A stretch of DNA of 32,000 nt from Candidatus Electronema halotolerans (GTDB lineage Bacteria > Desulfobacterota > Desulfobulbia > Desulfobulbales > Desulfobulbaceae), in NCBI GenBank assembly GCA_942493095.1, contig OW818675.1:1380001-1412000 (forward strand), given 5' to 3'. Positions 7,877-32,000 of this stretch are shown here, piece after piece. The translations under genes were made by a program, and so were the position numbers. Below the pieces are notes generated by a model. It worked only from the letters and a program-made list of their open reading frames with translations. It made no database searches and was not told where the DNA came from. How positions within the stretch are numbered: the stretch's first letter is position 1; each line of letters opens with the position of its first letter.

Positions 7877-8001
7877 CGCCATCATGATGAAAAGACTTGC
7901 AGTATGCAGCAATGCGGTTTATTATTTTTTTCACTTGTCAGCAGGCTGCTTGCTGAACAGTGATTACGTGTAAAAACAAATGCCTACATGGGAGTTATCA
8001 A

Positions 8002-8538: not shown

Positions 8539-8543
8539 AAACG

Positions 8544-9114: not shown

Positions 9115-10014
9115 ATGACAAAGACCTGCAACACTCCGCCGCAGTGGCTGCAAGTAAGCCTGAACTGCCCGGAACGTGCTTTGGAAGCGGTCTGCGACCT
9201 GCTCGGCGTTCTCAGCGGCTCGGCTGTGGAGCAGAGTCCGCTCAAAGACGGCCTGAGCACAGTCAGCGGTTTTTTCCAATTTTTCACTGAAGCGGAGCAG
9301 GAGCAGCTGCGCCGCCGCTTGGAAACTGAGCTGACCGACCTGTTCGCAGCCTACAAGCTGCCTGTGCCAATGCTGGCCTGTTCCGTGCTCGCAGATCAGG
9401 ACTGGGCCACATCATGGCAGCAGTTTTTCACGCCTTTTGCCATTGTTCCCGGCCTGATCATCAAGCCGAGCTGGGAAGAACATGCGGCCCAGCCGGGCGA
9501 GCAGGTGCTGGAGATTGATCCGGGCATGGCCTTTGGCACAGGCCAGCACGCTTCAACCAAGCTGGCTCTCAGCCTGCTGCAAAGCTGCTGTCATGACCAC
9601 CAGCCGGAAACCGTGCTTGATGTCGGCACCGGCACCGGCATTTTGGCAATGGCAGCAGCCCTGTTCGGGGCCAAGAAGATTCGTGCCATTGACAACGACC
9701 CGGAGGCGGTGCGGGCGGCGGCGGAAAACATTGCCTGCAACCATCTCAGCGCGATGATTGATGTTTCTGGCACTGTGCTGGCCGAGATCAGCGGCAGTTA
9801 TGACCTGATCTGCGCCAACATCCTCCATGATGTGCTGGTGGAAATGGCCCCGGACATTGCCAAGCGATTGACAGCGCAGGGTTGCGTGGTGCTGGCAGGC
9901 ATCCTGCGCGGCGAGCAGGAGGAGAATATTATTCAAATATACAGCGGGTTGGGACTCAAACTGCGGCAGCAGGTTCATGAGGAGGAATGGGCGGCCCTGC
10001 TGCTGGGCCGGTGA
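9115..10014 (+). CDS. prmA: ribosomal protein L11 methyltransferase
   Basis: 299 aa. F.PF.I.P.L.IKPSWEE, IDPGMAFGTGQHASTKL, and SAM motif VLDVGTGTGILAMAAALFGAKKIRAIDNDPEAV. Its AAGGAA ribosome-binding site lies inside the 3' end of the preceding low-GC gene. Confidence 0.9.
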   Translation: MTKTCNTPPQWLQVSLNCPERALEAVCDLLGVLSGSAVEQSPLKDGLSTVSGFFQFFTEAEQEQLRRRLETELTDLFAAYKLPVPMLACSVLADQDWATSWQQFFTPFAIVPGLIIKPSWEEHAAQPGEQVLEIDPGMAFGTGQHASTKLALSLLQSCCHDHQPETVLDVGTGTGILAMAAALFGAKKIRAIDNDPEAVRAAAENIACNHLSAMIDVSGTVLAEISGSYDLICANILHDVLVEMAPDIAKRLTAQGCVVLAGILRGEQEENIIQIYSGLGLKLRQQVHEEEWAALLLGR

Positions 10015-10035
10015 AATTTTTCTTGCCAGCTCTGC

Positions 10036-11094
10036 TCAGGACTGCGCTCTGATGGTCATGTAAGCAGGAAAATGCTGCATCTGACTCAGGTCATTTTCCA
10101 AGATGACTCGTTTTCCGTCCGCCGCCTTGCCCTTCTCCTTGAAATGGGCGAATTTGTAGGTCATATACATCATCCGGTTTCTCTCATTGCTGACAAACTC
10201 CGCCAGCAACCGCACACCCTTTTCTTGAGCCGCCTTTCTGATGTGATTGATCAGCACGCTGCCGACCCCGCGTGACATGACCCGGCAGGACATGAGCAGC
10301 AGCTTGATGGTCCAGACCTGCTCCCGGCATTCGATCAGAACCAGCCCGATCTTGCCGTAGGTGCCGTACTTGTCCTCAAGCCCGGCAATCAGCAGGATAT
10401 GATCCTCAGACTGCCGGAAGCGGTCCAGCTCCTCATACGAATAGGCATCGCCAGTGGTGTTGAGTTGATGGGTGCGCACCGTGAGTTCCTCGGCCCGCTT
10501 CAAGTCTTCCTCCTGCGCGGGCGCAATGGTCAGCACCATGTTCAGAGTGGCGAGAAACTCCTCCTTTGGCCCGACAAACTCCTCCTCCACCGCCTCGCGC
10601 CGCTGGTCGCTGAGATACATCTGCCGCCGCTTGGCCGAATCCTCTGTGATGAAACGGGGGTGCATTCGGGCCAGCTCCGGCACCTTGACAAGATCAGCGG
10701 CATCAAGGCAAAGCACTTCAGGCAGGGAGAAATTCACCTCTTCCCGCTCAAAGGCTTGATCGTCAATAAAGGCAAAGGTGTCAATGCCGATATTGAGCTT
10801 TTCGGCAATGGTCCTGATATTGTCAGCTTTTGAGTTCCAGTTGATCTGCGGATAGAGGAAATAGTCAGCCAGACCAAATTTCTCAAGCCTGCTCATGGCA
10901 TGGTTATGTTCATTTCTGCTGGCAATGGACTGAAGGATGCCCCGCTTGTCCAATGTCTGAATGATTTCCTGAACGCCATCGCGCAGCGTCACCTCGCTGT
11001 CCTCCAGCAGGATGCCGTTCCACAGAGTATTGTCCAAATCCCAAACCAGACATTTTATTTTCTGCTCTTCTTTGTCATGCGTCTGCTGCGTCAT
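10036..11094 (-). CDS. FkbH-like HAD-IIIC phosphatase/glyceryl-ACP transferase (first step of hydroxymalonyl/methoxymalonyl-ACP formation)
   Basis: 352 aa. HAD motif I as VWDLDNTLWNG, IDD motif, and the conserved FkbH Cys context LLLMSCRVMSRGVG. Size and layout match stand-alone FkbH/Asm16/ZmaN-type proteins. The start overlaps the preceding gene by 20 nt. Confidence 0.85.
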   Translation of the reverse strand: MTQQTHDKEEQKIKCLVWDLDNTLWNGILLEDSEVTLRDGVQEIIQTLDKRGILQSIASRNEHNHAMSRLEKFGLADYFLYPQINWNSKADNIRTIAEKLNIGIDTFAFIDDQAFEREEVNFSLPEVLCLDAADLVKVPELARMHPRFITEDSAKRRQMYLSDQRREAVEEEFVGPKEEFLATLNMVLTIAPAQEEDLKRAEELTVRTHQLNTTGDAYSYEELDRFRQSEDHILLIAGLEDKYGTYGKIGLVLIECREQVWTIKLLLMSCRVMSRGVGSVLINHIRKAAQEKGVRLLAEFVSNERNRMMYMTYKFAHFKEKGKAADGKRVILENDLSQMQHFPAYMTIRAQS

Positions 11095-12259
11095 TTCTTC
11101 CCTGTCTGCCTTTTCTTCGTTCCATGATTAGCTGCTGATAGCCGTTCTTGGCAATAATGATCTGCTGGATTTGATTGCTGCCTTCGATGATCTCCATGAT
11201 TTTCGCATCCCGGAAGCAGCGCTGCACCGGATAATCACTGCTACAGCCATTGGCCCCATGAATCTGCACTGCATCGCTGGCCGCCTGCATGGCGGCTCTG
11301 GAGGCAAAATATTTGGCCGTGGAAGTCTCCATGATCAGGGCCGGATCACCTTTGTCTTTCATATTGCCAGCATGGTGACAAAGCAGTCTTGCCGCTTTGC
11401 TGTTGGTGATCATGTCCGCAATCATCTGCTGAATGAGCTGATGCCCTCTGAGAGGAGCACCGAACTGCTTCCGCTCGCTGGTGTAGCTGAGGCAGGCGGA
11501 CAGGCAGGCTTCGATCAGGCCGAGACAACCCCAGGCCACACAGTAGCGGCCATGATCAAGCGCGGTTCCGGCGACATGCGAGAAGCCAAAGCCGATTCGA
11601 CCCACCAGATTTTCTTCAGGAATTCGGCAGTTCTTGAGTATGAGCCGGGCCAGCATGGCGGAACGGAAGCCGAGCAGGCCGCTGATGGCTTGGCTGGCAA
11701 AACCGGGCGTGTCCCGCTGGACAAGAAAGGCGGATGGTCTGCCCTCGCATTGGGCGATAATCAAAAAGAGATCAGCGACCTGACCAAAGGAAATCCATTT
11801 TTTTCCCCCTGTGATCAGATAACTGCCATCAGCATGAACCGCAGTGCTCTGGACGCTCTTGGCATCGCTGCCAATATCCGGCTCGGTCAGGCCAAACGCG
11901 CCGATGGTCGCGCCGCTTGCCAATCTGGGCAGCCAGACAGCCCGCTGCTCTGCTGTGCCCCATTTCAGCAGAGCCTGACAGACCATGCCATGCACAGTGA
12001 GCAAACTGAGCAGCGAGGCACTGACCCGGCCAATTTCCTCGCAGAGCAGACCAAAGGTGAGCGCATCCATGCCTTGGCCGCCATGCTCTTTGGGCACCAC
12101 AGCTCCCAGCCAACCGGTGGCGGCAAATTTTTTAATAACGCTCTCAGGCATCTGCTCATCCCGGTCATACTGATCAGCATGGGGAGCTATTTCCTCGCTC
12201 GCAAAAGAGCGGAACAAATCCCTGCTGCGCCGCTGTTCAGGGGTTAAGGAAAATTCCAT
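11075..12259 (-). CDS. acyl-CoA/acyl-ACP dehydrogenase (FkbI/Asm15/ZmaE-like)
   Basis: 394 aa with a typical ACAD layout: GAFGLTEPDIGSD, the FAD/substrate region GGKKWISFG, and the C-terminal catalytic-base context IMEIIEGSNQIQ. Confidence 0.9.
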   Translation of the reverse strand: MEFSLTPEQRRSRDLFRSFASEEIAPHADQYDRDEQMPESVIKKFAATGWLGAVVPKEHGGQGMDALTFGLLCEEIGRVSASLLSLLTVHGMVCQALLKWGTAEQRAVWLPRLASGATIGAFGLTEPDIGSDAKSVQSTAVHADGSYLITGGKKWISFGQVADLFLIIAQCEGRPSAFLVQRDTPGFASQAISGLLGFRSAMLARLILKNCRIPEENLVGRIGFGFSHVAGTALDHGRYCVAWGCLGLIEACLSACLSYTSERKQFGAPLRGHQLIQQMIADMITNSKAARLLCHHAGNMKDKGDPALIMETSTAKYFASRAAMQAASDAVQIHGANGCSSDYPVQRCFRDAKIMEIIEGSNQIQQIIIAKNGYQQLIMERRKGRQGRNDAADA

Positions 12260-12314
12260 TGTTTTATTGAATAATTAATTACAGGTCAAAAAGAGCAACC
12301 GCCCTTTTGCTTCA

Positions 12315-12554
12315 TCAGGCTGTCTTTCGTTGAATGAATCCGACAATGGCATTCATGGTTCTGAAGTTGTCATAATCAAGGTCTTCATTTTCCACCTTGA
12401 CGGCAAATTCCTTTTCCACGAACAGCACGAGCTGCATGGCAAAGAGGGAATTCACCAAACCAGAGGCGAAAAGATCCTCGTCATCATCCACATCAACGTT
12501 GATGAACTGCGCTAAAAATGACGTTACCGTCTCTCTGATGGCCTCTGCGTTCAT
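12315..12554 (-). CDS. stand-alone acyl carrier protein (FkbJ/Asm14/ZmaD-like)
   Basis: 79 aa and acidic. The attachment motif is LFASGLVNSLFAMQLV, with the Ser36 codon at 12447..12449. Asn replaces the more usual Asp before the Ser. Confidence 0.8.
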   Translation of the reverse strand: MNAEAIRETVTSFLAQFINVDVDDDEDLFASGLVNSLFAMQLVLFVEKEFAVKVENEDLDYDNFRTMNAIVGFIQRKTA

Positions 12555-12584
12555 ATTGCTCCTCTATCAATAGTTGCGCAATGA

Positions 12585-13448
12585 TTAGAACATATTTGGA
12601 TATTTGTAAAATCCCCTGCCGTTTTTCCGCCCGTGCAACCCGGCAGCAACCATTTTTTTCAGCAAAGGAGAACAGCGGAATTTGCTGTCCTGATATTCCT
12701 CATAAAGAACCTGCAACGTGTCCACCACGGTGTCAAGTCCGATCAGATCAGCGGTTTCCAGCGGCCCCATTGCATGACCGTAGCATTTCTTGAAGATATC
12801 GTCTATCTCTTTTGGCTCGGCAACATGCTCCATGACTAAATTGGCCGCCTCATTCATAAACAAATGCGACAGACGATTGGCGACAAAGCCCGGCGCATCG
12901 TTGACAAGAATGCAGTCCTTGCCCATCTGCCGCAGAAACTGCTTTGCCGCAGCAACAGTTTCCTCTGAAGTGTGATAACCACGGATGGTTTCCACGGTTT
13001 TCTTCATCGGCACCGGATTCATGAAGTGCATGCCAATGACCCGGTCTGGCCGCTGAGTCACAGAAGCAATGCGGGTGATCGGCACTGCCGAGGTGTTGGC
13101 GGCAAAAATGCAATGCGCAGGGCAGATCGGATCAATCTGCGCATAGACCTCCTGCTTGACGCTCCACTTTTCTGTGACATTTTCAACAACAACGTCAGCA
13201 GATGCAAGCAGCTCGCAGTTTGTGACAAAACTGATCCTTCCGAGCAGCTCCTCCGAGTCTGCCGCCGGACTTTCCTTGCGCATGAAGCCCTGAAAACGGA
13301 TGCTGTTTCTGATCTGTCCCTCGGCTTTTTGCAGAATATCCTCTGCAAGATCAATCAGGATCACCTGATGCCCGGTCTGGGCAAGATTCTGGGCCACCCC
13401 GCAGCCCATCACTCCGGCTCCGACCACGCCAACTGTCTTAATATTCAT
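12585..13448 (-). CDS. 3-hydroxyacyl-CoA/ACP dehydrogenase (FkbK/Asm13/ZmaG-like)
   Basis: 287 aa. Rossmann N-terminus VGVVGAGVMGCGVAQN, HFMNPVP, and the C-terminal dimerisation region GPLETADLIGLD. Its AAGGAAA ribosome-binding site overlaps the stop codon of the megasynthase gene. Confidence 0.9.
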   Translation of the reverse strand: MNIKTVGVVGAGVMGCGVAQNLAQTGHQVILIDLAEDILQKAEGQIRNSIRFQGFMRKESPAADSEELLGRISFVTNCELLASADVVVENVTEKWSVKQEVYAQIDPICPAHCIFAANTSAVPITRIASVTQRPDRVIGMHFMNPVPMKKTVETIRGYHTSEETVAAAKQFLRQMGKDCILVNDAPGFVANRLSHLFMNEAANLVMEHVAEPKEIDDIFKKCYGHAMGPLETADLIGLDTVVDTLQVLYEEYQDSKFRCSPLLKKMVAAGLHGRKNGRGFYKYPNMF

Positions 13449-13457
13449 ATTTTTCCT

Positions 13458-16400
13458 TTATGTTATTGCCGCAGGCTCAGTCTCCGGGACGGCGGCCATC
13501 CCGGCTGCGCGTTCCAGACAAATTTGCATCTGCGTCGCCAGCACCTGCACATGCGGCTGATTGACCATTGTATGATGTTTTCCAGGCACTTGAATCACTT
13601 CCACAGCTTGGGCCGCATAGTCCTGCCAGCCATGCTCCGGCGGCAGAGTTGGATCCTCCGGCCTTCTTTCCGCAGCTTGGAAGAGCGTGACCCTGCCGCC
13701 GCAGGTCTTGGCCTGAAAACGCAACGAAGCGGACATATTGCTTTTATAGACCCGGATCAGCCGCTTGGTCTGCATCAGGTCAACATCAGGGGGAAAGATG
13801 TTGATCTTTCGGCCTTGTTCAACGACATGGGCTAACTGCTCATCAGGACTGAGCTGGCGCAGATAGTCCAAGGACAGGGCAGCATCGGCTTCGGCAAAGT
13901 AATCGACAAAAAACTGCGCGTCATCTTCCGGTTCCTGAAGAATCTCCCTGATGATGTGCGGCGCAATGGCATCCAGCAAGCCAAGGAAGGTGACAGACTC
14001 TCCCTGCGCCTCCAGCCGGGCGGCCATTGCAAAGGCGACCAGTCCGCCGAACGACCAGCCCATGAGCTGATAGGGGCCGTGCGGCTGCACTGTCTGCATG
14101 GCTTCAATGTACTGTGCTGCCATCTCAGCAATATCCGGGCAAGGCTCCTGCTCCGCTTCCAGTCCGAATGCCTGGAAGGCGTAAAACGGCTGCTCCGGGC
14201 CGAGCTGCCGGGCCAGCTCAAGATAGCAGAGCACATTGCCGCCCGCCGGATGCACGCAGAAGAGCGGGGCCTTTTTGCCGCTGCTCTGAATGGGAACAAG
14301 GCAGGACCACGGCAGCAGCTCAGTCTGCCGCCGCAGAATCTTGGCGATTTCCTCAATGCTGCTGTTATGGAAAAGAGTGGTCAGGGCGATGCGCTGTTTG
14401 AACTGCTGCTCCACCTGCGCCATCAGCCGCACCGCCAGCAGGGAATGTCCGCCCAGCTCAAAGAAATTATCTTTGATGCCGACAGGATGCACTTTGAGCA
14501 GCTCTTCCCAAATCTGGGTCAGGCGCAGCTCCACCGTGTCACGCGGAGCCTGATATCGTTTATCCCTGCGCTGCGACTCAGGTTCCGGCAGAGCTTTGCG
14601 GTCGATCTTGCCGTTGGGAGTCAGGGGCAGTTTGTCGAGCACGGTGAAGCTGCCGGGCAGCATGTAGGCAGGCAACTGCTCGTGGAGGAAGTCGCGCAGC
14701 GCAACGGCGAATTCCGTTTTATCCACAAGGTCGGCAGCCGGATTGTTCGCATAGCTGCGCCAAGGCTTGGGCAGGGGTGCAGGCCGGTTCGGCGTGAAGC
14801 GGGCGGCAAGCTCTTTTCGTTGAAACACCGCTGTATAATGGAATTTTCCGCCATAATGCAGGGAGCAGGTGTATGCCGTGTCCTCGGTCAGAGTGCGCAA
14901 GGCTTCCGGGGCAACGAATTGGCCCGCGTCTTCTTGCACCAAGGCCCGCAAGTCGGCAACAGAGCCGTCAAAATGGGCAAGCTGCTCCAGCAGCTTCTTT
15001 TCTTCAGCGAGCCGGGCATTGGGTATGGTGCTGATTTCAATGACCTCGCTTTGCTGCTCGGCCAGCTTATGGCTGACCTGCTCCAGCGTCACGGCAGCTT
15101 TGCCCCAGTCCAAACGCTGCACCTGCGCTGTTGGCAGAGCAGGTCTTGCCGCATCAAGATGCAGGGTCACATCATAGCGGAAGCAGGTCATCTCGTTCTG
15201 AGCAAGCCCTTGTTTCAGCTCCAGCCGCACTTGACTGACCGCTGGAATCCGCTCTTGCAGGGCCATGAACAAGTCAGGATCAAGCAGCAGTTCCCGCTCC
15301 CGGCTCATGCTGGCCTGCACCCGCTGCCGCAGCTCCTTCACGGCCAGCCCGTCATCGGCCTGAAAAAGCTGCACCGACGCATGAAAGGCTTCCAAGAGCT
15401 GGAAGTTGCGCACATCGCCAATGAAAATGGAGCCGCCGGACGCAACTGCTGCCGCTGCTTTTTCCAAAACCTTGAGCAGATAGTCAATGGACGGGAAATA
15501 CTGAATGACTGAGTTGAGAATCACCAGATCAACGGAACCCGGCTGAAGGCTGTCAATCTGATCAGCAGCGAGCTGCCGCAGCATTACCCTGTCGCTGAAG
15601 TCCCAGTCCTGCTGCTGGGTTTCAATCCACGCCAAGGCTTCGGAAGAAATATCCGCGCCAATATACTGCTGGCAGAAAGGAGCCAAGCGGAAGAGCAACA
15701 TGCCGGTGCCGCAGCCGATTTCCAAAATGCGGGCTGGTGCCAGCGACAATATTCGCGCTACAGTGCCGTCAAGCCATTCCTGCATCTCCTGATCAGGAAT
15801 CGGCTGCATGGTGTAGCTGCTGTTCCAGCCGATGGTGTTGCGCTGCCGCTCGACCGGCGCATCAGCAGATTGGCTGTAGGTGTCGTTCCAGACCTGCTGC
15901 CACTGCTTGATTGTTTCCGTCTGCGCCGCCTGATCAGCACTGTCAGCTTCACTGGTCAAGCGCGGCACAATGTATGCGGCGAGCTGCTCCTGCTCCTGAT
16001 TGGCAATCACAGCGGCCTCCCGCACACGCGGATGCCTGTTCAGAGCCGCCTCAATTTCGCCCAGCTCAATGCGGAAGCCGCGCAGCTTGATCTGATGATC
16101 AATTCGTCCCAGACATTCCAAGATGCCGTTGCGGAGCAGCCGGGCCAGATCACCGGTTTTGTAGATGCGTTGCCGCTGGCCGAACAGTTCTATTTCGACG
16201 AATTTTTCCGCTGTCAGCTCAGGCCGGTTCAGATAGCCTCGCGCCAAACCATGCCCGCCGATGCACAGCTCTCCCGGCAGACCCGGCGGAACGAGGCCGC
16301 CGTGCTCGTCGAGAATATACATCTGAGTGTTGCCGATGGGCTGCCCGATCAATTCCGGCCGTTCCGGCCAGCTCGCAACATCCTGCATGGACGACCAAAT

Positions 16401-19400
16401 CGTGGTTTCAGTGGGGCCGTACACATTCCAAAGCCGCTGACAGTTGGCAAGCAGTTTTCTCCCAAGTTCCGCTTGCATGGCCTCGCCGCCGCAAAGGATG
16501 GTCAGCGGGCTGCGCTGCTGCCAGCCGCTGTGCAGAAGCATTTTCCATGTCGCCGGAGTGGCCTGCATCACAGTGATCTGTTCCTGCTCAAGAACCTCCA
16601 TAAGCAGGTCGCCGTTCATGGCTGTTTCTCTGTCAATAAGCACACACTGGCTGCCGCTGATCAACGGCAGATACAATTCCAAGGCCGCAATGTCGAAGGA
16701 CAGCGTGGTCAGGGCTAAGACTTTGTCATTTTCTTTTATGCCGATGCGCTGCTGCATATAACAGAGGAAATTCACCAGCGCGGCGTGCTCAATCATAACT
16801 CCTTTAGGCCGTCCTGTTGAACCGGAAGTGTAAATCACATAGGAGAGATGCTCCGGGCTGCTCCGTCTGCTCAGATTGTCTGCGGAATGCAGAGCAATTT
16901 CAGGCCAGCCGCTGTCCAAGCAGATGACTTCGGCACTGTGTTCCGGCAGGTGCGCCAACAGGTGCTGCTGGGTCAGCAGCACTTTCACTGCCGCATCATT
17001 GAGCATGAAGTGCAGCCGATCTTGCGGATAATCCGGGTCCAGCGGCATGTATGCGCCGCCCGCTTTGAGAATGCCGAGCAGACCGACCAGCATATCCAAA
17101 GAGCGCTCCACATAGATGCCGACCAAGGTGTCAGGCCCGACTCCCAAGGCCAGCAGATGCCGGGCCAGCTGATTGGCCTGCTGATTGAGTTCGGCAAAGC
17201 AGAGCTGCTCTTCAGCAAAGGCAACTGCAATATTGCCGGGACAGCGGACAGCCTGCGCCTCAAAAAGCTCAACCAGGGTTTTGTCTTGCGGGCAGGCGAA
17301 ATCCCTTTGATTCCAAGTTTGCAGCTCCTGCTCCTCCGCCGATGTCAGCAAAGAGAACGAGGAGTACGGCTGCTCTGGTGCTTTAACAATCTCCCGCAGC
17401 AGGGTCTGGAAATGCCCGGCCATCCGGGAGATGGTCTCTGCCGCGAACAAGTCGGTGGAATATTCCCAGTCGCAGACAAAGCCGTCCTCCTGTTCAGCAA
17501 TGCTCAGGGTCAGATCAAACTTGGCGGTTGTCAGCTCCGGCTCTAAGAAGGAAACAGTCACCCCGCTGAACTCCAGCGATTCCTGCGGCGCGTTCTGGAG
17601 AATGAACATCACCTGAAACAGCGGCGAATAACTGAGACTGCGGGCCGGGTTGAGCTGTTCCACCAAGTATTCAAAGGGAATGTCCTGATGGCTGTAGGCT
17701 TCCAGAGCGGTCTGCCTGATCTGGGTGAGCAGTTCAGCAAAGGTCTGGGCCGGGCCGAGCTGGCTGCGCAGGACCAGCGTGTTGACAAAAAAGCCGATTA
17801 AATCCTCGGTCTGCCGCTGGGTGCGGTTGGCAATGGGACTGCCCACGAGCAGGTCTGTCTGGCCGCTGTAGCGGTGCAGCAGGACGTTGAAGGCGGCCAG
17901 CAAGGTCATGAAAACGGTTGCCCCGTGCTCACGGCTCAGGAGCCTGACCGCTTGCGCCAGTTCGGCAGGCAGGGCTGATTGGAGATGCCGGCCCTGATAG
18001 CTGATTTCTGCCGGGCGGGGATAATCTGTGGGCAGTTCGAGCAGTTCAGGCACGCCAGCCAGCTTGCCGCGCCAATACTCCAACTGCTCATGCAGGGCCT
18101 TGCCGTGCAGCCAGCTCTTCTGCCAAGCGGCAAAATCCGTGTATTGAATCGACAGTTCCGGCAGGTTTGCTTTCCGATTTTCGAGACAGGAACAGTACAG
18201 CTCGCCCCAGTCGCGCACCAGGATGCCCATTGACCAGCCGTCGCTGATAATATGGTGCATGTTGAAGAGCAGTATCTGCTCCTGTGCGCCGAGCCGGAGC
18301 AGATGCAGACTGAACAGAGGCCCGGTGGTCAGCTCAAAGGCGGTGCCGCCATGCCTGCCAATCCATGCCTGCACCTGTTCCTCCTGTTCTGCGGCAGGCA
18401 AGCTGCTGAGATCAGCAATAGTCAGCGGGTCATAGAGGGCAAGCCGCTGCACAGCTGCTGTTCCGGCCTGCTCCGGGAAGTAGAGGCGCAGGCTCTCGTG
18501 CCGCGCAATCAGGGCTGTGGAGGCCCGGCGCAGTGCTCCCTCATCCAGTGGGCCGCGCAGTCGCAGGGCAATGGGCATGTTGTAGGCCGAATTCTGTTCT
18601 TCCAACTGGGTCAGAAACCAGAGCCGCTGCTGGGCAAAGGACAGTGCCAAGGGCGCGTCTTGAGCCAGCGGGCTGATGGTCGGCAGAGCCTGACCGCGCT
18701 GCTGCTGCCCCAGCCATGCCGCCTGTTCAGCCAGCACGGGCAGCTCAAAAACGATGCGCAGCGGCAGATCAACACCAAAGCTTTCGCGGATGCGCGAGAC
18801 AAGCTGAGTTGCCAGCAGGGAATGGCCACCGATCTCAAAGAAATTGCTCTGCACATCAGCAATGTCCATCTTCAGGGCCTGCGACCAGAGCGCGCAGAGC
18901 AGCTCTTCGGTCTCGGTCTGCGGGGCTTGCGCCTGCTGCCCGGAGGCAATGAAGTCAGGTCGCGGCAGAGCCTTGCGGTCAATCTTGCCGTTGGCAGTCA
19001 GGGGCAACTTGTCGAGCACGGTGAAGCTGGCCGGAATCATCCAGTCGGGCAGGATTTGCTTCAGGGCCTCACGCAGAACAGCAGGCAGAGCAGCAGATTC
19101 TGTTTTTGCAGCATCGACCGTGAGATAGGCAGCCAGCAGCTTGCCGCCCTCCTGCTCCCAGACAACTGCTGCCGCTTCTCTGACCGCCTCCTGCCGCACC
19201 AGAGCCGCCTCAATCTCGCCCAGCTCGATGCGGTGGCCGCGAATTTTGACCTGATTGTCCTCCCGGCCCAGAAATTCAATCGTGCCGTCCGGCAGGCGGC
19301 GGCCCAAATCGCCGGTCTTGTAGAGCCGCTCGCCGGTGCGGGGGTGGGTGATGAAGGAAGCCTCTGTTCTCTCCTGATCGCGCCAATAACCTTGGGCCAG

Positions 19401-22400
19401 ACCAATGCCGCCGATATACAACCGGCCTGCCGTCCGCACCGGACACGGCGCAAGCTGTTCATTGAGGACATGAAAGGTCTGATTGGTCAGAGGCCGACCG
19501 TAGGGAATGCTCGTCCATGCCGGGTCAACCGCGCCGATAGAATGGAAGATTGACCAGATAGAGACCTCTGTGGCTCCACCCAGACTGATCAGTTCAGCAG
19601 CAGGCCAGAGCTGGCGGATGCGCTCCGGCAGATCAAGAGGAATCCAGTCGCCGCTCATCATCACCAAGCGCAGCGGCGCAGGCAAGGGCTGCCCGTGCTG
19701 ATCTTCAACCAGCATCTGCATCAGGGCGGGCACGCTGTTCCATACTGTCACGCTGTGCCGGGTCAGCAGTTCCGCCCAGAGCGAGGGATCGCGGCGGGCT
19801 TCCGGCGCAGGCATGACAATGGTGCCGCCGACAGCCAGCAGTCCAAAAATATCATAGACCGACAGATCAAAATGCAGGGCGGAAAGGGCCAGCACCCGGT
19901 CTGCGGCGCTGATGCCGAAACGGCGGTTGATGTCCAAAATCGTGTTGACCGCGCCCCGATGATCTATGGCCACGCCTTTGGGCAGGCCGGTTGAGCCGGA
20001 GGTGTAGATCACGTAGGCCAAATCAGTCGGCTGCTGCTGGAGGTCCGGCAATTTTTCTTCTGCGCCCCCGGCGGTGCGGGCTGCGACAATGAGCGGCTGA
20101 ACCGTGTCTGGCCAATCAAGCTGTGCGGACAGATGCGGCTGAGTGAGAGCCAGCCGGACATCGCCCTGTTCGAGCAGATACTGCTGCCGGACAACAGGCA
20201 GTTCCGGGTCAACAGGCAGATAGGCCGCTCCAGAGAGCAGAATGCCGAGCACGGCCACGACCTGCTCCCAGCCTTTCTCCATGACCACAGCCACAAGCTG
20301 GTTTTGCGCCGCGCCCAGCTCCCGGAGCTGGCCAGCAAGGAGCATTGCTTCTTGGCGCAGTTCGGCGTAGGTCAACGCCCGTCCTGCGGCAACAACTGCC
20401 AGCCGCTCCGGCCCGGCCTCGGCCTGTTGCAGAAAAAGGGTGTGCAGCAGCGCATCTGACAGCGGCGCGGCAGTGTCATTCCATTCGACGAGTTGCTGTT
20501 TTTCCGTGTCTGTGAGCAAAGGCAGGCTGCGGATGTCTGTCTCCGGCTGCCGCACAATGCCGTCCAGCAGCACGGCGAAACATTCAGCTATGCGCCGTAC
20601 GGTTGCCTCTGCAAACAGGTCAGAGGCATATTCCCAGCCAAGCACAAGCTCCCCGCCGCGTTGCTCCGCGCTCAGGGTCAGATCAAATTTAGCCGTTGGA
20701 AAATCCTGCGCCACTGGTTCGATTTCCAGACCGGGCAGTTGAACGCCAAGCTCCTCGTTATTCTGGAACACAAACATGACTTGGAAGAGCGGACTATGGC
20801 TGAGGCTGCGCTCCGGTCGGAGTCGCTCCACCAGATGCTCGAACGGAACATCCTGATGCGCGTAGGCATCCAGCGCAGTGCGCCGCACCTGGCCGAGCAG
20901 GGTGCTGAAGGTGATGCCAGTTTGGCAGCGGATGCGCAGAGGCAAGGTGTTGACAAACAAGCCGATCAGTCCTTCGGTCTGCCGGAGCGTGCGCCCGGCG
21001 ATGGGGCTGCCGATGACAAGGTCATCCTGACTGCTGTGCCGTTGGAGCAGGACGCTGAAGGCGGCCAGCAAGGTCATGAACAGGGTGCAGTTCTCCTGCC
21101 GGGCCAGTTCATGCAGCCGCTGAGTCAATTCCGGGGCGATGCGGCTTTCCAGATGGCCGCCTTGATAGCTCTGCACTGCCGGACGCGGATGATCAGCAGG
21201 CAGCTGAAGCAGGGGCGGCGCGCCGGTGAGCTGCTCCTCCCACCATGCAAGCTGCCGGGTCAGCAGGTCTCCGGCCAGCAGCTCCCGCTGCCATGCCGCA
21301 TAGTCGGCGTACTGCACTGGCAGCGACCGCAGCTCCGGGCTTTGTCCTTTTGCCAGCGCGGCATAGATTTCTCCTGACTCCCGGAGCAAAATGCTCATGG
21401 ACCAGCCATCGCTGATAATGTGGTGCATGTTGAAGAGCAGGACATGCTCCTGCTCGTTGAGCCGAACCAGCTCCAGGCGGAGCAGCGGGCCGCGCTCCAG
21501 ATCAAAGGGCCGGGCCGTGTGCTCCTCAAGCCGCTCTTGGAGCGCAGCTTTCTGTTTCTCGGCAGCAAGAGCCGTCAAGTCGCTCATGGCCAGCGGGTCA
21601 TAAACCGCAATGAGCCGCAGCCCGGCTTGGCCGTCACGATCAGGAAAACTCATCCGCAGGCTCTGGTGCCGTTCGGTCAGCAGGACAAAGGTCTGCCGCA
21701 GGGCGGCAATGTCCAGCCTGCCGCGCAGCCTGACCGCCGCAGGCATGTTATAGGTTGCGGAAGGGCCTTCCAAGCGGGCCAAAAACCAGAACCGCTCCTG
21801 CGCGGGCGAGAGGCGCAGCGGCACTGTTTCCGGCAACGGCTGAATCTGCGGCAGAGTGCCGCCCCGCTGCTGCTGCTCCAGCCAGACCGCCAAATCCGCC
21901 AGCACCGGATGTTCAAACAAGGCCCGCAGGGGCATTTCCACGCTAAAGCTGTCGCGGATACGGGCGACCAATTGCGTCGCCAGCAGAGAATGACCGCCCA
22001 GCTCGAAAAAATGCGCGGCAATACTGCGCACCTCTGTTTTCAACACAGCGGCATACAGCCCGGCCAGCAGCATTTCCGTCTCTGTGCGCGGCGGCACCGC
22101 CTCTGCTCCTGTCTGCGGCGCAGCCGGTTCCGGCAATGCCCTGCGGTCAATTTTGCCGTTGGGAGTCAGGGGCAGCTTGTCGAGCACGGTGAAGCTGGCC
22201 GGAATCATCCAGTCGGGCAGGCTTTCCTTGAGAAAGGCCCGTAAAGCCGGGGCATCAAGCTCCGCCCCGTTCGCTGCCATCAGGTAGGCGGCAAGGAATG
22301 TATTGCCGTCATTCTCACGGAGCACAAGCACAGCTTCCGCAACCGCTTCATGTTTGGTCAGAGCCGTCTCAATCTCGCCCAGCTCAATGCGGAAGCCGCG

Positions 22401-25400
22401 CAGCTTGACCTGATGATCAATCCGGCCCAGATATTCAAGATTGCCGTCCGGCAGCCAGCGGGCCAAGTCGCCGCTGCGATAAATGCGCTCCGTCCTGCCG
22501 AACAGCTCAATTTCAATAAATTTCTCCACTGTCAGCTCCGGGCGGTTCAAATAGCCCCGCGCCAGACCGGCTCCGGCAATGCACAGCTCGCCTGGCAGGC
22601 CCGGCGGAACGAGCTGCATCTGCGCATCAAGCAGATAGATGCGATAACCCGGCAATGGCTTGCCTATCGGCATTCTCCGGGCAGGTTCATCCGCCTGCGC
22701 AAAGCAATGCACAGCAGCGCAGACTGTGGCCTCGGTCGGGCCGTAGCCGTTGAGAATATGCAGGGCAGGCGCAAGATTGCGGTATCGCTGCATCAGTCCT
22801 TGGCTGATTGGCTCCACGCCCACCAGCAGCCGCTGCCAGTCAAGGGCGGCAGTGCGCTGCTCCAGCTCATTTGCCAGCGGCTCCAGCAAGGCCGGGGGCA
22901 GATACATGCTGTTGATCTGTTGCGCAAGCAGGTGCTCGGCAAGTTCAGCCGGGCTGATGTCTGATTGCAGGTCAAGCAGATGCAGGCTGCCGCCGAAGCA
23001 GAGATGCGTGAATATCTCCCATACGGAAACATCAAAAGAAAATGCGCCAACGGTCATACCGTGCAGCGGCTGGCGGGCCGGGGCAAGCTGCTCAAAGCCG
23101 TGCAGCAGCATCGTCACGCTGCCCTGCTCGATCATCACGCCCTTGGGTTTTCCTGTTGAACCGGAGGTGTAAATGACATAAGCGAGATTCTCCGGCTTGC
23201 TCCTGCGCGGCGGATTGCTGTCAGGCTGATTCTCAAACAGAAATGGTTCATCCAAGTCAAGGCGGGTTCCGGCAAAATCCGGCAATCGCTCATGCAGATG
23301 CGTCTGGGTGAGGAGAATCTGCGCGCCGCAGTCCTCAACCATGAAACGCAGCCGTTCTTCTGGATAACTCGGATCTAAAGGCACATAAGCCCCACCCGCT
23401 TTGAGAATGCCGAGCAGGCCGATGATCATTTGCGGCGAGCGTTCAGCGCAGATGCCGACTAATGTCTCCGCCCGCACTCCGCGTTCCATCAGGGCATGAG
23501 CGACTTGATTGACTTTTTTGTTAAGCTGCTGATAGGTGATCCGCTCGTCTGCAAACACAACAGCAATATTTTCCGGGGTCTTTTCAACCTGCTCCTCGAA
23601 CAGATCAGACAGTGTCTTATCCTTCTGATATTCCGCCGCCGTGTCGTTCCATTCGATGAGCTGCCGCTTCTCCTCCTTCGTGAGCAGGGGCAGACGGGCG
23701 AGCTGTTCCTGCGGAGCAGCGAAAATGCCTTGCAGCAGCACCTGCAAGTGTCCGCTCATCCGGGCAATGGTCTCAGGCCGGAACAGGTCGGTGCTGTATT
23801 CCCAGTCGCAGGCAAAACAGCCTTCCCGCTCCTCAATGCTCAGGGTCAGATCAAACTTGGAGGTTCTGTTTTCCGTTTCCAAAACAGTCGCCTGCAAATC
23901 ATCCAGCGCCAGTTTGTGCTCCGGCGCATTCTGAACCACAAACATGACTTGGAAGAGCGGGGCATGACTCAGGCTGCGGCTGGGATTGAGCTGCTCCACC
24001 AAATATTCAAAGGGAATATCCTGATGGTTGTACGCTTCCAGTGCGGTTTGCTTCACCTGCCGGAGTAGCTGGGGAAAGGTCTCCTGCTCGTCAACAACTG
24101 TGCGCAGGACAAGGGTGTTGACAAAAAAGCCGATCAGATTTTCCGTGGCATGATGGGTGCGGTTGGCAATCGGGCTGCCGACCAGCAGGTCGCTCTGGCC
24201 GCTACAGCGGAAGAGAAGGACTTTGAAGGCGGCCAGCAGGGTCATGAACACCGTTGCGCCCTGCTCCTGACTGAACTGCTTGATGCGCCGGGTCAGCTCC
24301 CGGTCCAAGCTGCTTTTCAGATGGCCGCCCTGATAGCTCGTCACAGCGGGCCGGGGATAATCTGTGGGCAGCTCCAGCAATTCCGGGGCAGCAGCAAGTT
24401 TTTCCCGCCAGTAGGCAAGCTGCTGTTCCAGCACCTTGCCTTGCAGCCATGTTCTCTGCCAAGCTGCATAGTCCGTGTATTGAATGGGCAAGTCCGGCAG
24501 CACCGGCTGCCGGTTCCGGGCAAAGGCGGTGTACAGCTCGCTCCAGTCGCGGATCAGAATGCCGATGGTCCACGCATCACTGATGATATGGTGCATGTTG
24601 AGCAGCAGGATATGCTCTTCCGCATGCAGCTTGAGAAGATGCAGCCGCAGCAGCGGCCCGGTGCTCAGATTGAAAGGTTCCTTGGCATGGGCGGCAATCC
24701 ACTCTTTGCGCAAACGATTCTGCTCTGCTGCGGACAACTTGCTGATATCTTGGATTTCCAAGGGGTCATAGGCCGGAAGCCGCAGCACCGCTGCTTGGTC
24801 ATTGCTGATCGGAAACGACAGGCGCAGGCTCTCGTGCCGCTCAATTAAGGCGGCAAATGCTTGGCGCAGGGCGGTCTCGTTCAATTTGCCCGCCAGATGG
24901 AGCACGCCGGGCAGGTTGTAGGTTGCGCTCTCTCCCTCCAACTGGGCAAGGAAATGCAGCCGCTGCTGACCAAAGGACATGGCTAAAGGCGCGTCTGCGG
25001 CCTGCGGCAGAATGGGCGGCAACGCAGCGGCATCCTGTCCCTGCTGCGCTTCCAGCCTTATGGCAAGGTCTTCCAGGACAGGATGCTGAAAGAGGATATC
25101 CAAGGGAATATCTGCGGCAAAGACCTCCCGCAGGCGGGACAGCACCTGCGCGCCCAGCAGGGAATTGCCGCCTAACTTGAAGAAATCATCAAAAACGCCA
25201 ATCGGTTCAATCCCCAGAAGCAGCTGCCATATTTCGGCGATTTTCTGCTCTGTTGCAGTGCGGGGGGCAAGATAGTCAACATCGCTGTCCGGGCGGTTAT
25301 AGGTTGCAGCCGTGCGGGCATCTGCAAGCGAAGCCGCTCTCTCTGAGGAGACTTGTTCCGTTCCGCTGGCAGATGATTCATAATGCTGCCGCGCAACCGG

Positions 25401-31409: not shown

Positions 31410-32000
31410 AGCTCACCTTCCTCCATTTCAGCGACTGCATCGCTTTCTTCAGCAACGGCAAGCAGCCGGGCCAGTTCGCTCACTGTGGGCAGGGCGAAAA
31501 GCTGCCGCAGGGACAGCTCTGCGGCAAAGGCGGTGCGGATGCGCGAGACCAATTGCGTGGCTAAGAGCGAATGGCCGCCGAGATCAAAGAAGTTGTCATG
31601 CACGCCAATCTGCTCTGGCCGCCGCCGGAGCACTTCGGCCCATATCTCGGTCATGCGCTGTTCCTCGTCTGTGCGGGGCGCAACCCGGCTGGGCTGTTCT
31701 GCGGCTTCCACTGACAGGTCTGCCAGCGCACGGTGGTCGAGCTTGCCGTTGCTGGTCAGAGGCAGGGTATCGAGCAGAAGGAAGCCCGCAGGCACCATGT
31801 AATCTGGCAGGCGGCTTCTGAGCTGGCTGCGCAAAACTTCAATCAGGTCAGCAGGCGCCTCTTCGGTCGGGACAATGTACGCCAGTAAACAGGCATTGCC
31901 GTTCTTGTCATCAAGCAGCACCACTGCCTCTCGCACTGCCTCGTGCTCATGCAGAACCGTCTCGATTTCGCCCAGCTCAATGCGGAAGCCGCGCAGCTTG
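31406..32000 (-). CDS. NRPS, 3' end only (A-domain C-terminus, T domain, acidic C-terminal docking tail); the gene continues beyond the window edge
   Basis: The reading frame stays open to position 32000 (KLRGFRIELGEIETVLHEHEAV...). LPDYMVPAGF, SNGKLDHRAL, and FFDLGGHSLLATQ (Ser codon at 31568..31570). It ends ...AVAEESDAVAEMEEGEL, and its TGA overlaps the GTG of the next gene. Confidence 0.9.
   Translation of the reverse strand, partial: KLRGFRIELGEIETVLHEHEAVREAVVLLDDKNGNACLLAYIVPTEEAPADLIEVLRSQLRSRLPDYMVPAGFLLLDTLPLTSNGKLDHRALADLSVEAAEQPSRVAPRTDEEQRMTEIWAEVLRRRPEQIGVHDNFFDLGGHSLLATQLVSRIRTAFAAELSLRQLFALPTVSELARLLAVAEESDAVAEMEEGEL

What the first reader, a model, noticed from the sequence alone, without database searches (positions are those of the whole stretch)
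10036..13448. Four-gene hydroxymalonyl/methoxymalonyl-ACP cassette in asm13-16 order, with no O-methyltransferase in the window
The genes are 3-hydroxyacyl dehydrogenase, ACP, acyl dehydrogenase and FkbH-like protein, in that transcriptional order. This reproduces the established asm13-asm14-asm15-asm16 / fkbK-J-I-H logic that converts a glycolytic intermediate into hydroxymalonyl-ACP. In the ansamitocin and FK520 systems a fifth gene (asm17/fkbG, an O-methyltransferase) then makes methoxymalonyl-ACP. Here the cassette ends at 10036, convergent with prmA only 21 nt away, so no O-MT follows it. That points to a hydroxymalonyl-ACP extender, as in zwittermicin (ZmaD/E/G/N). Alternatively, methylation could be done by an enzyme encoded upstream of the window.
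Basis: partly seen in the sequence, partly recalled or inferred. Interest (0 to 1): 0.7.

Follow-up and report, generated by a model that had tools for sequence, protein, structure and literature searches.

The report
Hydroxymalonyl-ACP extender cassette, cable bacterium
Four adjacent genes at the end of a giant peptide-polyketide synthetase operon in the cable bacterium Candidatus Electronema halotolerans are a textbook kit for making the rare hydroxymalonyl building block; the kit is an ordinary, widely shared module in an unusual host.

Summary
Four minus-strand genes encode a 3-hydroxyacyl dehydrogenase (12585-13448), a 79-aa carrier protein (12315-12554), an acyl dehydrogenase (11075-12259) and an FkbH protein (10036-11094). 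prmA converges 21 nt downstream. FkbH scores 292 bits against TIGR01686 (cut-off 147) and keeps the DxDxT motif and the SCRV cysteine.

The cassette sits 9 nt behind a 5,983-aa NRPS-PKS. Its single KS-AT-carrier module has an AT with NAAH where 115 of its 119 closest alignable relatives have HAFH. The best solved-structure match for that AT is ZmaA, the hydroxymalonyl-ACP-specific AT (GAAH).

No O-methyltransferase gene lies in the window. It resembles the backbone N-methylating TioS domain and sits in a glycine-like module, so it is not the missing O-MT.

Five related cassettes (70-79% identity) from other lineages keep the same order without an adjacent O-MT.

Hydroxymalonyl-ACP is therefore the best reading (about 0.7). 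The cluster continues past base 32000, and that part could not be reached.

This is a new member of a known kind. Interest is modest, mainly because of the host and the ketoreductase-less module.

The parts
12585..13448 (-). NAD-dependent 3-hydroxyacyl dehydrogenase (287 aa), counterpart of ZmaG/FkbK/Asm13/BafAI. Inferred to oxidise glyceryl-ACP to 2-hydroxy-3-oxopropionyl-ACP.
   Evidence: PF02737 2.5e-57 and PF00725 2.8e-31. Its start lies 9 nt after the megasynthase stop. It is 56-76% identical to the same gene in five related cassettes.
12315..12554 (-). Discrete 79-aa acyl carrier protein, counterpart of ZmaD/FkbJ/Asm14/BafAII. The phosphopantetheine serine is Ser36 (window 12447-12449) in the motif GLVNSLFAMQL.
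   Evidence: PF00550 4.6e-7, 30.4 bits against a cut-off of 20.8. The serine motif is invariant in five related cassettes, which are 60-79% identical overall.
11075..12259 (-). FAD-dependent acyl-(ACP) dehydrogenase (394 aa), counterpart of ZmaE/FkbI/Asm15/BafAIII. Inferred to complete the oxidation to hydroxymalonyl-ACP.
   Evidence: PF02771, PF02770 and PF00441. It matches the FkbI structure 1r2j at 1e-56, although generic ACADs score higher. It is 70-75% identical in related cassettes.
10036..11094 (-). FkbH-like HAD-IIIC phosphatase/glyceryl transferase (352 aa), counterpart of ZmaN/FkbH/Asm16/BafAIV. The DxDxT motif D19-L-D21-N-T23 lies at window 11026-11040. Cys270 of the SCRV motif lies at 10285-10287.
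   Evidence: TIGR01686 292.5 bits against a cut-off of 146.65, and TIGR01681 74 bits. D19, D21, T23, D111, D112, S269, C270 and R271 are invariant in at least 118 of 120 homologues. A 100%-identical protein is recorded from Ca. Electronema halotolerans.
13458..31409 (-). 5,983-aa NRPS-PKS megasynthase. Domain order: TubC-type docking domain, C-A-T, KS-AT-T (no KR, DH or ER), C-A-T, C-A-T, C-A(MT)-T-TE. It is the presumed user of the extender unit.
   Evidence: Single uninterrupted ORF. Domain calls come from Pfam. There are four HHxxxD condensation motifs and five carrier serines.
26883..28007 (-). KS domain of the single PKS module (aa 1135-1509). The Cys/His/His active-site motifs are present (TACSTS, EAHGTAT, NVGHL).
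   Evidence: PF00109 2.1e-69 and PF02801 2.8e-37. The motifs were read from the translation.
25611..26447 (-). cis-AT domain (aa 1655-1933). It has GHSIG (window 26163-26177) and NAAH in place of HAFH/YASH (window 25872-25883). Methionine occupies the first 'RXR' position. It is the inferred loader of hydroxymalonate from the discrete ACP.
   Evidence: Its best PDB match is ZmaA-AT 4qbu (227 bits), ahead of CurL at 218 bits. In the alignment, IMHS.....NAAH lines up with ZmaA LMCM.....GAAH. The ZmaA motifs are given in PMC4207774. Of 119 alignable closest PKS homologues, 115 have HAFH and none has xAAH.
25161..25163 (-). Ser2083 (LGGNSL), the phosphopantetheine site of the PKS-module carrier domain that receives the extender. 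No KR lies between the AT and this carrier.
   Evidence: PF00550 hit and absence of a KR hit in the 5,983-aa protein. Motif position.
15390..15779 (-). Methyltransferase domain embedded between the a8 and a10 motifs of the last adenylation domain (SAM motif I ILEIGCGTG at 15702-15728). It is probably a backbone N-methyltransferase that makes sarcosine. It is not an FkbG-type O-MT.
   Evidence: PF08242 1e-14. The best PDB hit is 5wmm at 2.8e-56 over about 330 residues. 5wmm is TioS(A8-MI-A9), a type I backbone N-MT (PMC8341866). The host A domain has the code DILQLGVIWK, which is glycine-like (code assignment from my own knowledge).
31406..32000 (-). C-terminal end (A-domain tail plus PCP) of a further upstream NRPS. 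Its stop overlaps the megasynthase start by 4 nt. The cluster therefore continues beyond the window.
   Evidence: PF13193 and PF00550. Reading frame checked.
9115..10014 (+). Convergent prmA (ribosomal protein L11 methyltransferase family). It marks the downstream boundary of the operon and occupies the position where methoxymalonyl clusters carry the O-MT.
   Evidence: PF06325 6.8e-65 over the full length. TIGR00406 scores 177 bits, just under its cut-off of 183.

Best explanation
The four genes form the tail of an NRPS-PKS operon and make (2R)-hydroxymalonyl-ACP, a 'glycolate' extender unit. The proposed steps are:

1. FkbH takes a phosphoglycerate (1,3-bisphosphoglycerate in the characterised systems), removes the phosphate with its HAD domain (D19/D21), holds the glyceryl group on Cys270 and passes it to Ser36 of the 79-aa ACP.
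2. The NAD-dependent dehydrogenase oxidises C3 to the aldehyde.
3. The FAD-dependent dehydrogenase oxidises the aldehyde to the acid.
4. The cis-AT (NAAH) of the only PKS module in the adjacent 5,983-aa synthetase moves hydroxymalonate onto the module's own carrier (Ser2083).
5. The KS condenses it with the aminoacyl or peptidyl chain delivered by module 1.

Because the module has no KR, the predicted result is a gamma-amino-alpha-hydroxy-beta-keto unit. That unit is then extended by three amino acids: one of unknown type, one Cys-like, and N-methyl-Gly-like. The TE releases the product.

Shown here: gene identities, order, motifs, operon layout, the unusual AT, and the absence of an O-MT gene in the window. 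Inferred: every chemical step, the AT-ACP pairing, and the absence of O-methylation.
For: -
- The catalytic motifs are invariant in 120 homologues.
- The layout is tight and co-directional, with no promoter or terminator signal above background.
- The AT has NAAH where 115 of 119 alignable closest homologues have HAFH.
- The only methyltransferase sequences in 32 kb are prmA and an N-MT-like domain in a Gly-like module (PMC8341866).
- Five related cassettes with all four proteins 56-79% identical (mostly 70-79%) keep the same order beside PKS/NRPS genes, with no O-MT among the called genes within 10 kb. The megasynthases beside them are not orthologous.
- Precedent 1: a four-gene ZmaN/D/G/E set without an O-MT gives hydroxymalonyl units in butyrolactol, supported by isotope labelling (PMC5355916).
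- Precedent 2: the O-MT-less four-gene module is the commoner form, found in 73 BGCs against 28 with the O-MT (PMC6395733).
- In bafilomycin the same four genes in the same order are followed by the O-MT as the fifth gene (PMC3679948). Here that position is occupied by convergent prmA.
Against: - The cluster runs off the window at 32000, so an O-MT gene or a PKS-embedded O-MT domain upstream cannot be excluded. Chondrochloren shows that this happens (PMC6395733).
- The AT keeps GHSIG, whereas ZmaA has GYSFG and the ATs beside two related cassettes have GYSxGE.
- The margin of ZmaA over malonyl-specific CurL is small, 227 against 218 bits.
- The xAAH motif also occurs in the third-best PDB hit, 5yda (PAAH), so it is not unique to hydroxymalonate.
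- The ACAD is no closer to FkbI than to ordinary acyl-CoA dehydrogenases.
- No biochemical data exist for this organism.
Confidence: 0.7

Rival explanations
1. The cassette makes methoxymalonyl-ACP. The same four steps occur, and then an O-methyltransferase encoded upstream of base 32000, either as a separate gene or as a domain of an upstream synthetase, methylates the 2-hydroxyl before or after incorporation.
For: The assembly line continues beyond the window. O-MT function can be supplied by a domain in a PKS subunit rather than a neighbouring gene, as with chondrochloren CndE (PMC6395733). ATs specific for ACP-tethered methoxymalonate and hydroxymalonate share the same carrier-recognition features (PMC4207774), so the AT does not discriminate between the two.
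Against: In the characterised five-gene loci the O-MT is contiguous with the other four genes (asm13-17, PMC6164871; bafAI-AV, PMC3679948). Here the contiguous position is taken by convergent prmA. None of five related cassettes has an O-MT within 10 kb. The only embedded MT seen is of the N-MT type.
Confidence: 0.17
2. The cassette does not feed the PKS module in the window. That AT would use malonyl-CoA or another CoA-linked unit, and the hydroxymalonyl- or glyceryl-ACP would serve a different module upstream.
For: The AT retains the canonical GHSIG, and its KS-AT scaffold is closest to malonyl-type cyanobacterial modules at 50-57% identity. More modules exist upstream.
Against: NAAH replaces HAFH, which is present in 115 of 119 alignable homologues. 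ZmaA-AT is the best solved match. The cassette is separated from this synthetase gene by only 9 nt.
Confidence: 0.08
3. FkbH and the ACP supply unoxidised glyceryl-ACP, as in tetronate formation or in glycerate starter units, and the two dehydrogenases have another role.
For: FkbH plus an ACP alone are used in that way in tetronates (bioRxiv 10.1101/119214) and as embedded domains in vioprolide and corramycin (PMC10099666).
Against: No FabH-type ketosynthase gene was found among the ORFs scanned. Both dehydrogenases sit inside the same tightly packed unit and travel with FkbH and the ACP across lineages at 56-79% identity.
Confidence: 0.03

Closest known systems
Zwittermicin A hydroxymalonyl-ACP genes ZmaN/ZmaD/ZmaG/ZmaE with ZmaA-AT (Bacillus cereus)
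   Same: The same four protein families are present, with no O-MT. A cis-AT in a hybrid NRPS-PKS takes the unit from a discrete ACP. The AT motif xAAH (NAAH here, GAAH in ZmaA) and the methionine at the carrier-recognition position are shared. ZmaA-AT is the best solved match (PMC4207774; PMC6395733).
   Different: The window AT keeps GHSIG rather than GYSFG. By my own recollection, which was not checked here, the ZmaA module has a KR, whereas this module has none. The gene order and context differ, because the zma genes lie in a nine-gene locus that also makes aminomalonyl-ACP. The host is a Desulfobulbaceae cable bacterium, not a Bacillus.
Methoxymalonyl-ACP five-gene subclusters (asm13-17 of ansamitocin, bafAI-AV of bafilomycin, fkbG-K of FK520)
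   Same: The order 3HCDH-ACP-ACAD-FkbH directly downstream of the synthase genes is identical. For bafilomycin this is shown gene by gene in PMC3679948. asm13-17 is described as a five-gene unit in PMC6164871.
   Different: The fifth gene, a 221-aa O-methyltransferase in bafilomycin (BafAV), is absent here. Convergent prmA follows after 21 nt.
Butyrolactol A cluster (Streptomyces)
   Same: Four ZmaN/D/G/E homologues lie downstream of the PKS with no O-MT nearby. The hydroxymalonyl origin there is supported by labelling (PMC5355916).
   Different: That system is a pure polyketide using several hydroxymalonyl extensions with reduction. Here there is one KR-less extension inside a peptide assembly line.
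Uncharacterised four-gene cassettes in metagenomic and MAG contigs (L083, L085, L087, L088, L089; Parabeggiatoa-like, Planctomycetes and others)
   Same: All four proteins are 56-79% identical, in the same order, with the same ACAD/FkbH overlap. All lie beside NRPS/PKS genes, and none has an adjacent O-MT.
   Different: The neighbouring synthases are not orthologous (AT about 35-39% identical). Two of them are KS-AT(GYSxGE, HAFH)-KR-ACP-TE modules. Three loci carry a class-III aminotransferase that the window lacks.

Membership tests
Hydroxymalonyl-ACP four-gene subcluster (ZmaN/D/G/E type; 'module M112949' of PMC6395733) | FkbH-family HAD-IIIC protein | tested here: met
   TIGR01686 292.5 bits against a cut-off of 146.65, and TIGR01681 74.3 against 35.75.
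Hydroxymalonyl-ACP four-gene subcluster (ZmaN/D/G/E type; 'module M112949' of PMC6395733) | HAD DxDxT phosphatase motif and a conserved cysteine for the glyceryl-thioester intermediate | tested here: met
   D19, D21, T23 and the S269-C270-R271-V272 motif are present and invariant in at least 118 of 120 homologues. Calling this cysteine catalytic rests on my knowledge of OzmB/FkbH biochemistry, not on a test made here.
Hydroxymalonyl-ACP four-gene subcluster (ZmaN/D/G/E type; 'module M112949' of PMC6395733) | Discrete ACP with a phosphopantetheine serine | tested here: met
   PF00550 30.4 bits against 20.8. Ser36 in the NSL motif is conserved in five relatives.
Hydroxymalonyl-ACP four-gene subcluster (ZmaN/D/G/E type; 'module M112949' of PMC6395733) | 3-hydroxyacyl-CoA-dehydrogenase-family and acyl-CoA-dehydrogenase-family enzymes, contiguous and co-directional with FkbH and the ACP | tested here: met
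   Pfam hits. Gaps of 30 and 55 nt and an overlap of 20 nt.
Hydroxymalonyl-ACP four-gene subcluster (ZmaN/D/G/E type; 'module M112949' of PMC6395733) | A partner AT that recognises an ACP-tethered, non-malonyl extender | tested here: inconclusive
   In favour: NAAH instead of HAFH, methionine at the first RXR position, and ZmaA as the best PDB hit. Against: GHSIG rather than GYSxG, and only a 9-bit margin over CurL.
Hydroxymalonyl-ACP four-gene subcluster (ZmaN/D/G/E type; 'module M112949' of PMC6395733) | The ACP actually carries hydroxymalonate | not testable with these tools
   This needs in vitro reconstitution with mass spectrometry.
Methoxymalonyl-ACP five-gene subcluster (fkbGHIJK / asm13-17 / bafAI-AV) | Dedicated O-methyltransferase gene contiguous with the other four | tested here: not met
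   There is no such ORF. The only SAM motif I matches in real reading frames are prmA and the embedded N-MT-like domain. The sequence upstream of base 32000 was not available.
Aminomalonyl-ACP pathway (ZmaJ/H/I/G type) | Stand-alone seryl-AMP ligase that loads the ACP, instead of FkbH | tested here: not met
   FkbH is present, and the window has no free-standing adenylating enzyme. The requirement is described in PMC6395733.
Tetronate glyceryl-ACP system (FkbH + ACP + FabH-like ketosynthase) | Stand-alone FabH-type condensing enzyme | tested here: not met
   None was found among the ORFs scanned. The definition is taken from bioRxiv 10.1101/119214.
Interrupted adenylation domain, family 1 (A8-Mb-A9, backbone N-methylation) | Type I M domain inserted between a8 and a9, with close similarity to TioS(A8MIA9) | tested here: met
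   The insertion follows KLRGFRIELGEIE and precedes NGKIDR. The hit to 5wmm is 2.8e-56. The classification is from PMC8341866. No comparison with type II or III O-MT domains was made.

The most novel reading that the evidence does not exclude
The KR-less KS-AT-carrier module, fed with hydroxymalonate and placed between two peptide modules, would create a gamma-amino-alpha-hydroxy-beta-keto amide. This is an enolisable reductone, or masked tricarbonyl, and it would sit next to a free cysteine thiol and a C-terminal sarcosine. No close orthologue of the synthetase was found among 5.8 billion proteins. The product could therefore be a new redox-active or metal-binding peptide scaffold made by an uncultured, electrically conductive cable bacterium, a group from which the searched literature describes no secondary metabolite.
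Probability: 0.1. Interest if true: 0.55.

Novelty: new member of a known kind. Interest (0 to 1): 0.3.

Why it matters
The cassette itself is textbook chemistry, and the O-MT-less four-gene form has already been catalogued as a recurrent module. Three points give it some value.

1. It extends hydroxymalonyl-type extender supply to a Desulfobulbaceae cable bacterium, and to a large set of uncultured lineages whose cassettes are 56-79% identical. A 2017 paper listed only Bacillus, Xenorhabdus, Paenibacillus and Streptomyces (PMC5355916).
2. It flags an undescribed NRPS-PKS cluster in Candidatus Electronema halotolerans. The searched literature does not mention NRPS or PKS clusters in cable bacteria.
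3. The AT (GHSIG plus NAAH) is another natural sequence for working out how ATs choose ACP-tethered extenders.

Tried and rejected
**Reaching the cluster upstream of base 32000**

All of these attempts failed.
Its best match was only 58% identical.
- A protein search with the same fragment returned only short, unrelated fragments and no self hit.
- A protein search with the KS-AT-carrier region also returned no self hit and nothing closer than 48-68% identity.
- An exact look-up of FkbH found only two Logan contigs, of 5 and 8 kb, both ending inside the 3HCDH gene.

**Literature**
- The Ca. E. halotolerans genome paper contains none of the terms polyketide, nonribosomal, NRPS or antiSMASH.
- None of the seven papers that mention both 'cable bacteria' and 'polyketide' deals with a cable-bacterial cluster, judging from their titles and abstract openings.

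**Ideas rejected**
- The embedded methyltransferase as the missing O-MT. It is TioS-like and sits in a Gly-like module.
- prmA as a recruited O-MT. It is a full-length PrmA-family protein on the opposite strand.
- The 'RXR to hydrophobic' rule as a discriminator. The position is variable even in HAFH-type relatives of this AT.

**Other negative results**
- The promoter and terminator scan of 9800-13700 gave nothing above shuffled background.
- PADLOC, Pfam and NCBIfam gave no hits for the two low-GC ORFs at 7960-9110.

Full report
**1. Observation**

The region 10036-13448 holds four minus-strand ORFs at exactly the coordinates given.
- 3-hydroxyacyl-CoA-dehydrogenase family, 12585-13448, 287 aa: PF02737 2.5e-57 and PF00725 2.8e-31.
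- Carrier protein, 12315-12554, 79 aa: PF00550 4.6e-7.
- Acyl-CoA-dehydrogenase family, 11075-12259, 394 aa: three domains, down to 1e-45.
- HAD-type protein, 10036-11094, 352 aa. NCBIfam identifies it as FkbH: TIGR01686 at 292.5 bits against a cut-off of 146.65.

The genes are tightly packed. Reading downstream from the preceding gene, there are gaps of 9, 30 and 55 nt and then a 20-nt overlap. The FkbH stop is 21 nt from the stop of convergent prmA (9115-10014; PF06325 6.8e-65). A consensus scan found no promoter or terminator signal above shuffled background inside the unit.

**2. Source organism**

A protein 100% identical to this FkbH is recorded from Candidatus Electronema halotolerans on a 3.2-Mb contig. 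This is a cable bacterium of the Desulfobulbaceae whose closed genome was published in 2023 (PMC10030654). That paper contains none of the terms polyketide, nonribosomal, NRPS or antiSMASH. None of the seven papers in the held library that mention both 'cable bacteria' and 'polyketide' deals with a cable-bacterial cluster, judging by title and abstract.

**3. Surroundings**

Nine nucleotides upstream of the first cassette gene ends a single 5,983-aa ORF (13458-31409, minus strand). Pfam gives this domain order: TubC-type N-terminal docking domain, C-A-T, KS-AT-T, C-A-T, C-A-T, C-A(MT)-T-TE.
- All four condensation domains carry HHxxxD, and all five carrier domains carry the GGxS serine.
- There is no KR, DH or ER. 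About 130 residues separate the AT from the carrier domain.
- A further NRPS gene ends in A-PCP and overlaps the start of this ORF by 4 nt. It runs off the window at 32000.

The cassette is therefore the 3' end of a longer assembly-line operon, and only part of the cluster is visible. Downstream of prmA lie ordinary genes: two ammonium transporters, a P-II protein, hemE, an HD-domain protein and a metallo-beta-lactamase-fold protein.

**4. FkbH catalytic residues**

An alignment of the 120 best homologues shows that these residues are invariant in at least 118 sequences:
- D19, D21 and T23 (HAD motif I)
- S56 and S59
- K89
- D111 and D112
- S269-C270-R271-V272

Calling C270 the glyceryl-thioester residue rests on my knowledge of OzmB/FkbH biochemistry, not on a test made here. 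No FkbH structure exists in the PDB copy beyond a partial HAD match, 3slr. The ACAD matches FkbI (1r2j) at 1e-56, but generic acyl-CoA dehydrogenases score higher, so it gives no specific signal.

**5. The AT that should use the unit**

- The cis-AT (aa 1655-1933) has its best solved-structure match in ZmaA-AT (4qbu, 227 bits), the hydroxymalonyl-ACP-specific AT of zwittermicin. Malonyl-specific CurL follows at 218 bits.
- In the HMMER alignment the window's I-M-H-S-R-L-Q-T-L-N-A-A-H lines up with ZmaA's L-M-C-M-R-V-T-I-E-G-A-A-H.
- According to PMC4207774, GAAH occupies the YASH/HAFH position in ZmaA, and M286-C-M288 replaces the RXR carrier-recognition motif.
- The window AT therefore shares xAAH and the first methionine. 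It keeps GHSIG where ZmaA has GYSFG.
- Among the 120 closest KS-AT proteins found in 5.8 billion sequences, 119 could be aligned across this motif. Of those, 115 carry HAFH, none carries xAAH, and only one has methionine at the RXR position.

The AT is therefore a clear outlier, precisely at the extender-specificity motif, within a malonyl-type scaffold. The caveats are that the margin over CurL is small and that the third PDB hit (5yda) also has PAAH. xAAH marks 'not malonyl' rather than hydroxymalonyl as such.

**6. Methyltransferases in the window**

A six-frame scan for SAM motif I finds only two matches in real reading frames: prmA, and a domain inside the last adenylation domain (15702-15728).
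- It lies after the a8 motif (KLRGFRIELGEIE) and before NGKIDR.
- Its best PDB hit is 5wmm at 2.8e-56 over about 330 residues.
- PMC8341866 identifies 5wmm as TioS(A8-MI-A9), the structural representative of type I backbone N-methylating domains.

The ruler reproduced the published PheA code DAWTIAAICK, which validates it. The codes are:
- A1: DPEDIGAVSK
- A2: DVWYLGGVCK
- A3: DLYNMSLIWK
- A4: DILQLGVIWK

By my recollection of published codes, A4 is glycine-like and A3 is cysteine-like. Glycine has no side-chain hydroxyl, which fits N-methylation to sarcosine. This domain is therefore not a substitute for FkbG. I did not compare it with type II or III O-MT reference domains.

**7. Relatives of the cassette**

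FkbH has thousands of homologues, the closest at 90% identity. Those at 71-77% come from unrelated lineages, including a Planctomycetes MAG, Candidatus Parabeggiatoa, Thioploca, Desulfamplus and cyanobacteria. I examined five loci on long contigs (L083, L085, L087, L088, L089).
- All have the order 3HCDH-ACP-ACAD-FkbH, with ACAD and FkbH overlapping.
- All lie beside NRPS/PKS genes.
- None has an O-MT among the called genes within 10 kb.
- All four proteins are 56-79% identical to those of the window.

The neighbouring synthases are not orthologous. Their ATs are about 35-39% identical to the window's. Two of them are KS-AT-KR-ACP-TE modules whose ATs carry GYSxGE, as ZmaA does, together with HAFH.

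The cassette's GC content (46-56%) is below that of the synthetase (59%) and of the flanking genes (56-60%).

The cassette thus behaves as a mobile four-gene plug-in that is normally O-MT-less in this clade.

**8. Comparison with what is known**

- The bafilomycin cluster lists, directly after the PKS genes, a 3-hydroxyacyl-CoA dehydrogenase, an ACP, an acyl-CoA dehydrogenase, an FkbH-like protein and then a 221-aa O-methyltransferase (PMC3679948). This is the same order as here, plus the fifth gene.
- asm13-17 is described as a five-gene methoxymalonyl unit (PMC6164871).
- A survey of BGC sub-modules found the five-gene module in 28 BGCs and the four-gene O-MT-less module in 73. It notes that in chondrochloren the O-MT is supplied by a domain of a PKS subunit (PMC6395733).
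- For butyrolactol, four ZmaN/D/G/E homologues without a nearby O-MT, together with labelling data, supported hydroxymalonyl-ACP (PMC5355916).

The same literature also shows why the unseen upstream part matters.

**9. Mechanism**

- Shown: gene content, motifs, layout, the atypical AT, and the absence of an O-MT gene in 32 kb.
- Inferred from the characterised Zma, Fkb and Asm systems: FkbH loads a glyceryl group on Ser36 of the ACP; the NAD-dependent enzyme oxidises C3 to the aldehyde; the FAD-dependent enzyme oxidises it to the carboxylate; the NAAH AT moves hydroxymalonate to Ser2083; and the KS extends the module-1 chain.
- Without a KR, the expected unit is an alpha-hydroxy-beta-keto amide, followed by three residues (unknown, Cys-like, N-Me-Gly-like) and TE release.

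I put this at 0.7. The rivals are methoxymalonyl through an unseen O-MT (0.17), a cassette that serves a different module (0.08) and use of glyceryl-ACP without oxidation (0.03).

**10. What failed**

I could not obtain the sequence beyond base 32000.
- The one genome-contig scan was saturated by generic NRPS motifs.
- Two protein searches returned no self hits for the synthetases.
- The exact look-up found only 5-8 kb contigs.

The key open question, an O-MT elsewhere in the cluster, needs the public genome record.

**11. Verdict**

This is a correctly read, ordinary biosynthetic sub-cluster and a new member of a known kind. Its interest is modest (0.3). It comes from the host, an uncultured cable bacterium with no described secondary metabolism; from the wide distribution of near-identical O-MT-less cassettes; and from a KR-less hydroxymalonyl module whose product is not predictable from any close relative.

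Noticed in passing
window 15390-15779 (minus strand; SAM motif at 15702-15728): A methyltransferase domain is embedded in the last adenylation domain, between a8 and a10. It is TioS-like (5wmm, 2.8e-56), and its host A domain has the glycine-like code DILQLGVIWK. This suggests a C-terminal sarcosine.
   Followed up: yes
window 7960-9110 (plus strand): Two back-to-back ORFs (192 and 188 aa) have only 33% and 40% GC, in a region otherwise at 56-60%. They lie between the P-II gene and prmA. Pfam, NCBIfam and PADLOC gave no hits. The same pair is present on the two Logan contigs. It looks like a small foreign insert of unknown function.
   Followed up: partly
window 932-1237 (minus strand): A 101-aa ORF matches only the Cas12f1/TnpB-like TNB domain (PF07282, 1.4e-6). 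It is probably a remnant of an IS200/IS605-type TnpB gene.
   Followed up: no
window 4386-7817 (plus strand): Two ammonium-transporter genes in tandem (483 and 409 aa) are followed by a P-II (GlnB/GlnK-type) gene. The first transporter has an N-terminal extension of about 90 aa before the Amt domain.
   Followed up: no
L085 11160-12422; L088 6258-7505; L089 12644-17905: Three of the five related cassettes have a class-III aminotransferase next to them, or fused into the neighbouring synthetase. This hints that in those clusters the beta-keto group next to the hydroxymalonyl-derived carbon is converted to an amine. The window has no such gene.
   Followed up: partly
L083 (AT in 1-4484) and L087 (AT in 1-7270): The ATs beside two related cassettes carry GYSTGE and GYSVGE, the Tyr-for-His change described for ZmaA and ZmaF, but keep HAFH. 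The window AT does the opposite, with GHSIGE and NAAH. These are two different departures from the malonyl pattern beside the same cassette.
   Followed up: partly
window 10036-13448 compared with 13458-31409: The cassette genes have lower GC (ACP 46%, 3HCDH 52%, FkbH 54%, ACAD 56%) than the synthetase (59%) and the flanking host genes (56-60%). This is consistent with the cassette having been acquired separately from the synthetase.
   Followed up: partly
window 19.0-21.4 kb (module 3 of the megasynthase; C domain at aa 3329, A domain from aa 3802): The third A domain has the cysteine-type code DLYNMSLIWK but follows an ordinary HHxxxDG condensation domain, not a cyclisation domain. A free thiol, rather than a thiazoline, is therefore predicted. 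The second C domain has HHIISDAW, with alanine in place of the usual glycine.
   Followed up: partly
window 13458-32000: Neither the 5,983-aa synthetase nor the upstream NRPS was returned as a self hit from the 5.8-billion-protein collection, although the neighbouring FkbH was. These genes may be missing, split or marked as pseudogenes in the public annotation, or they may have been lost in the word-based candidate filter.
   Followed up: no
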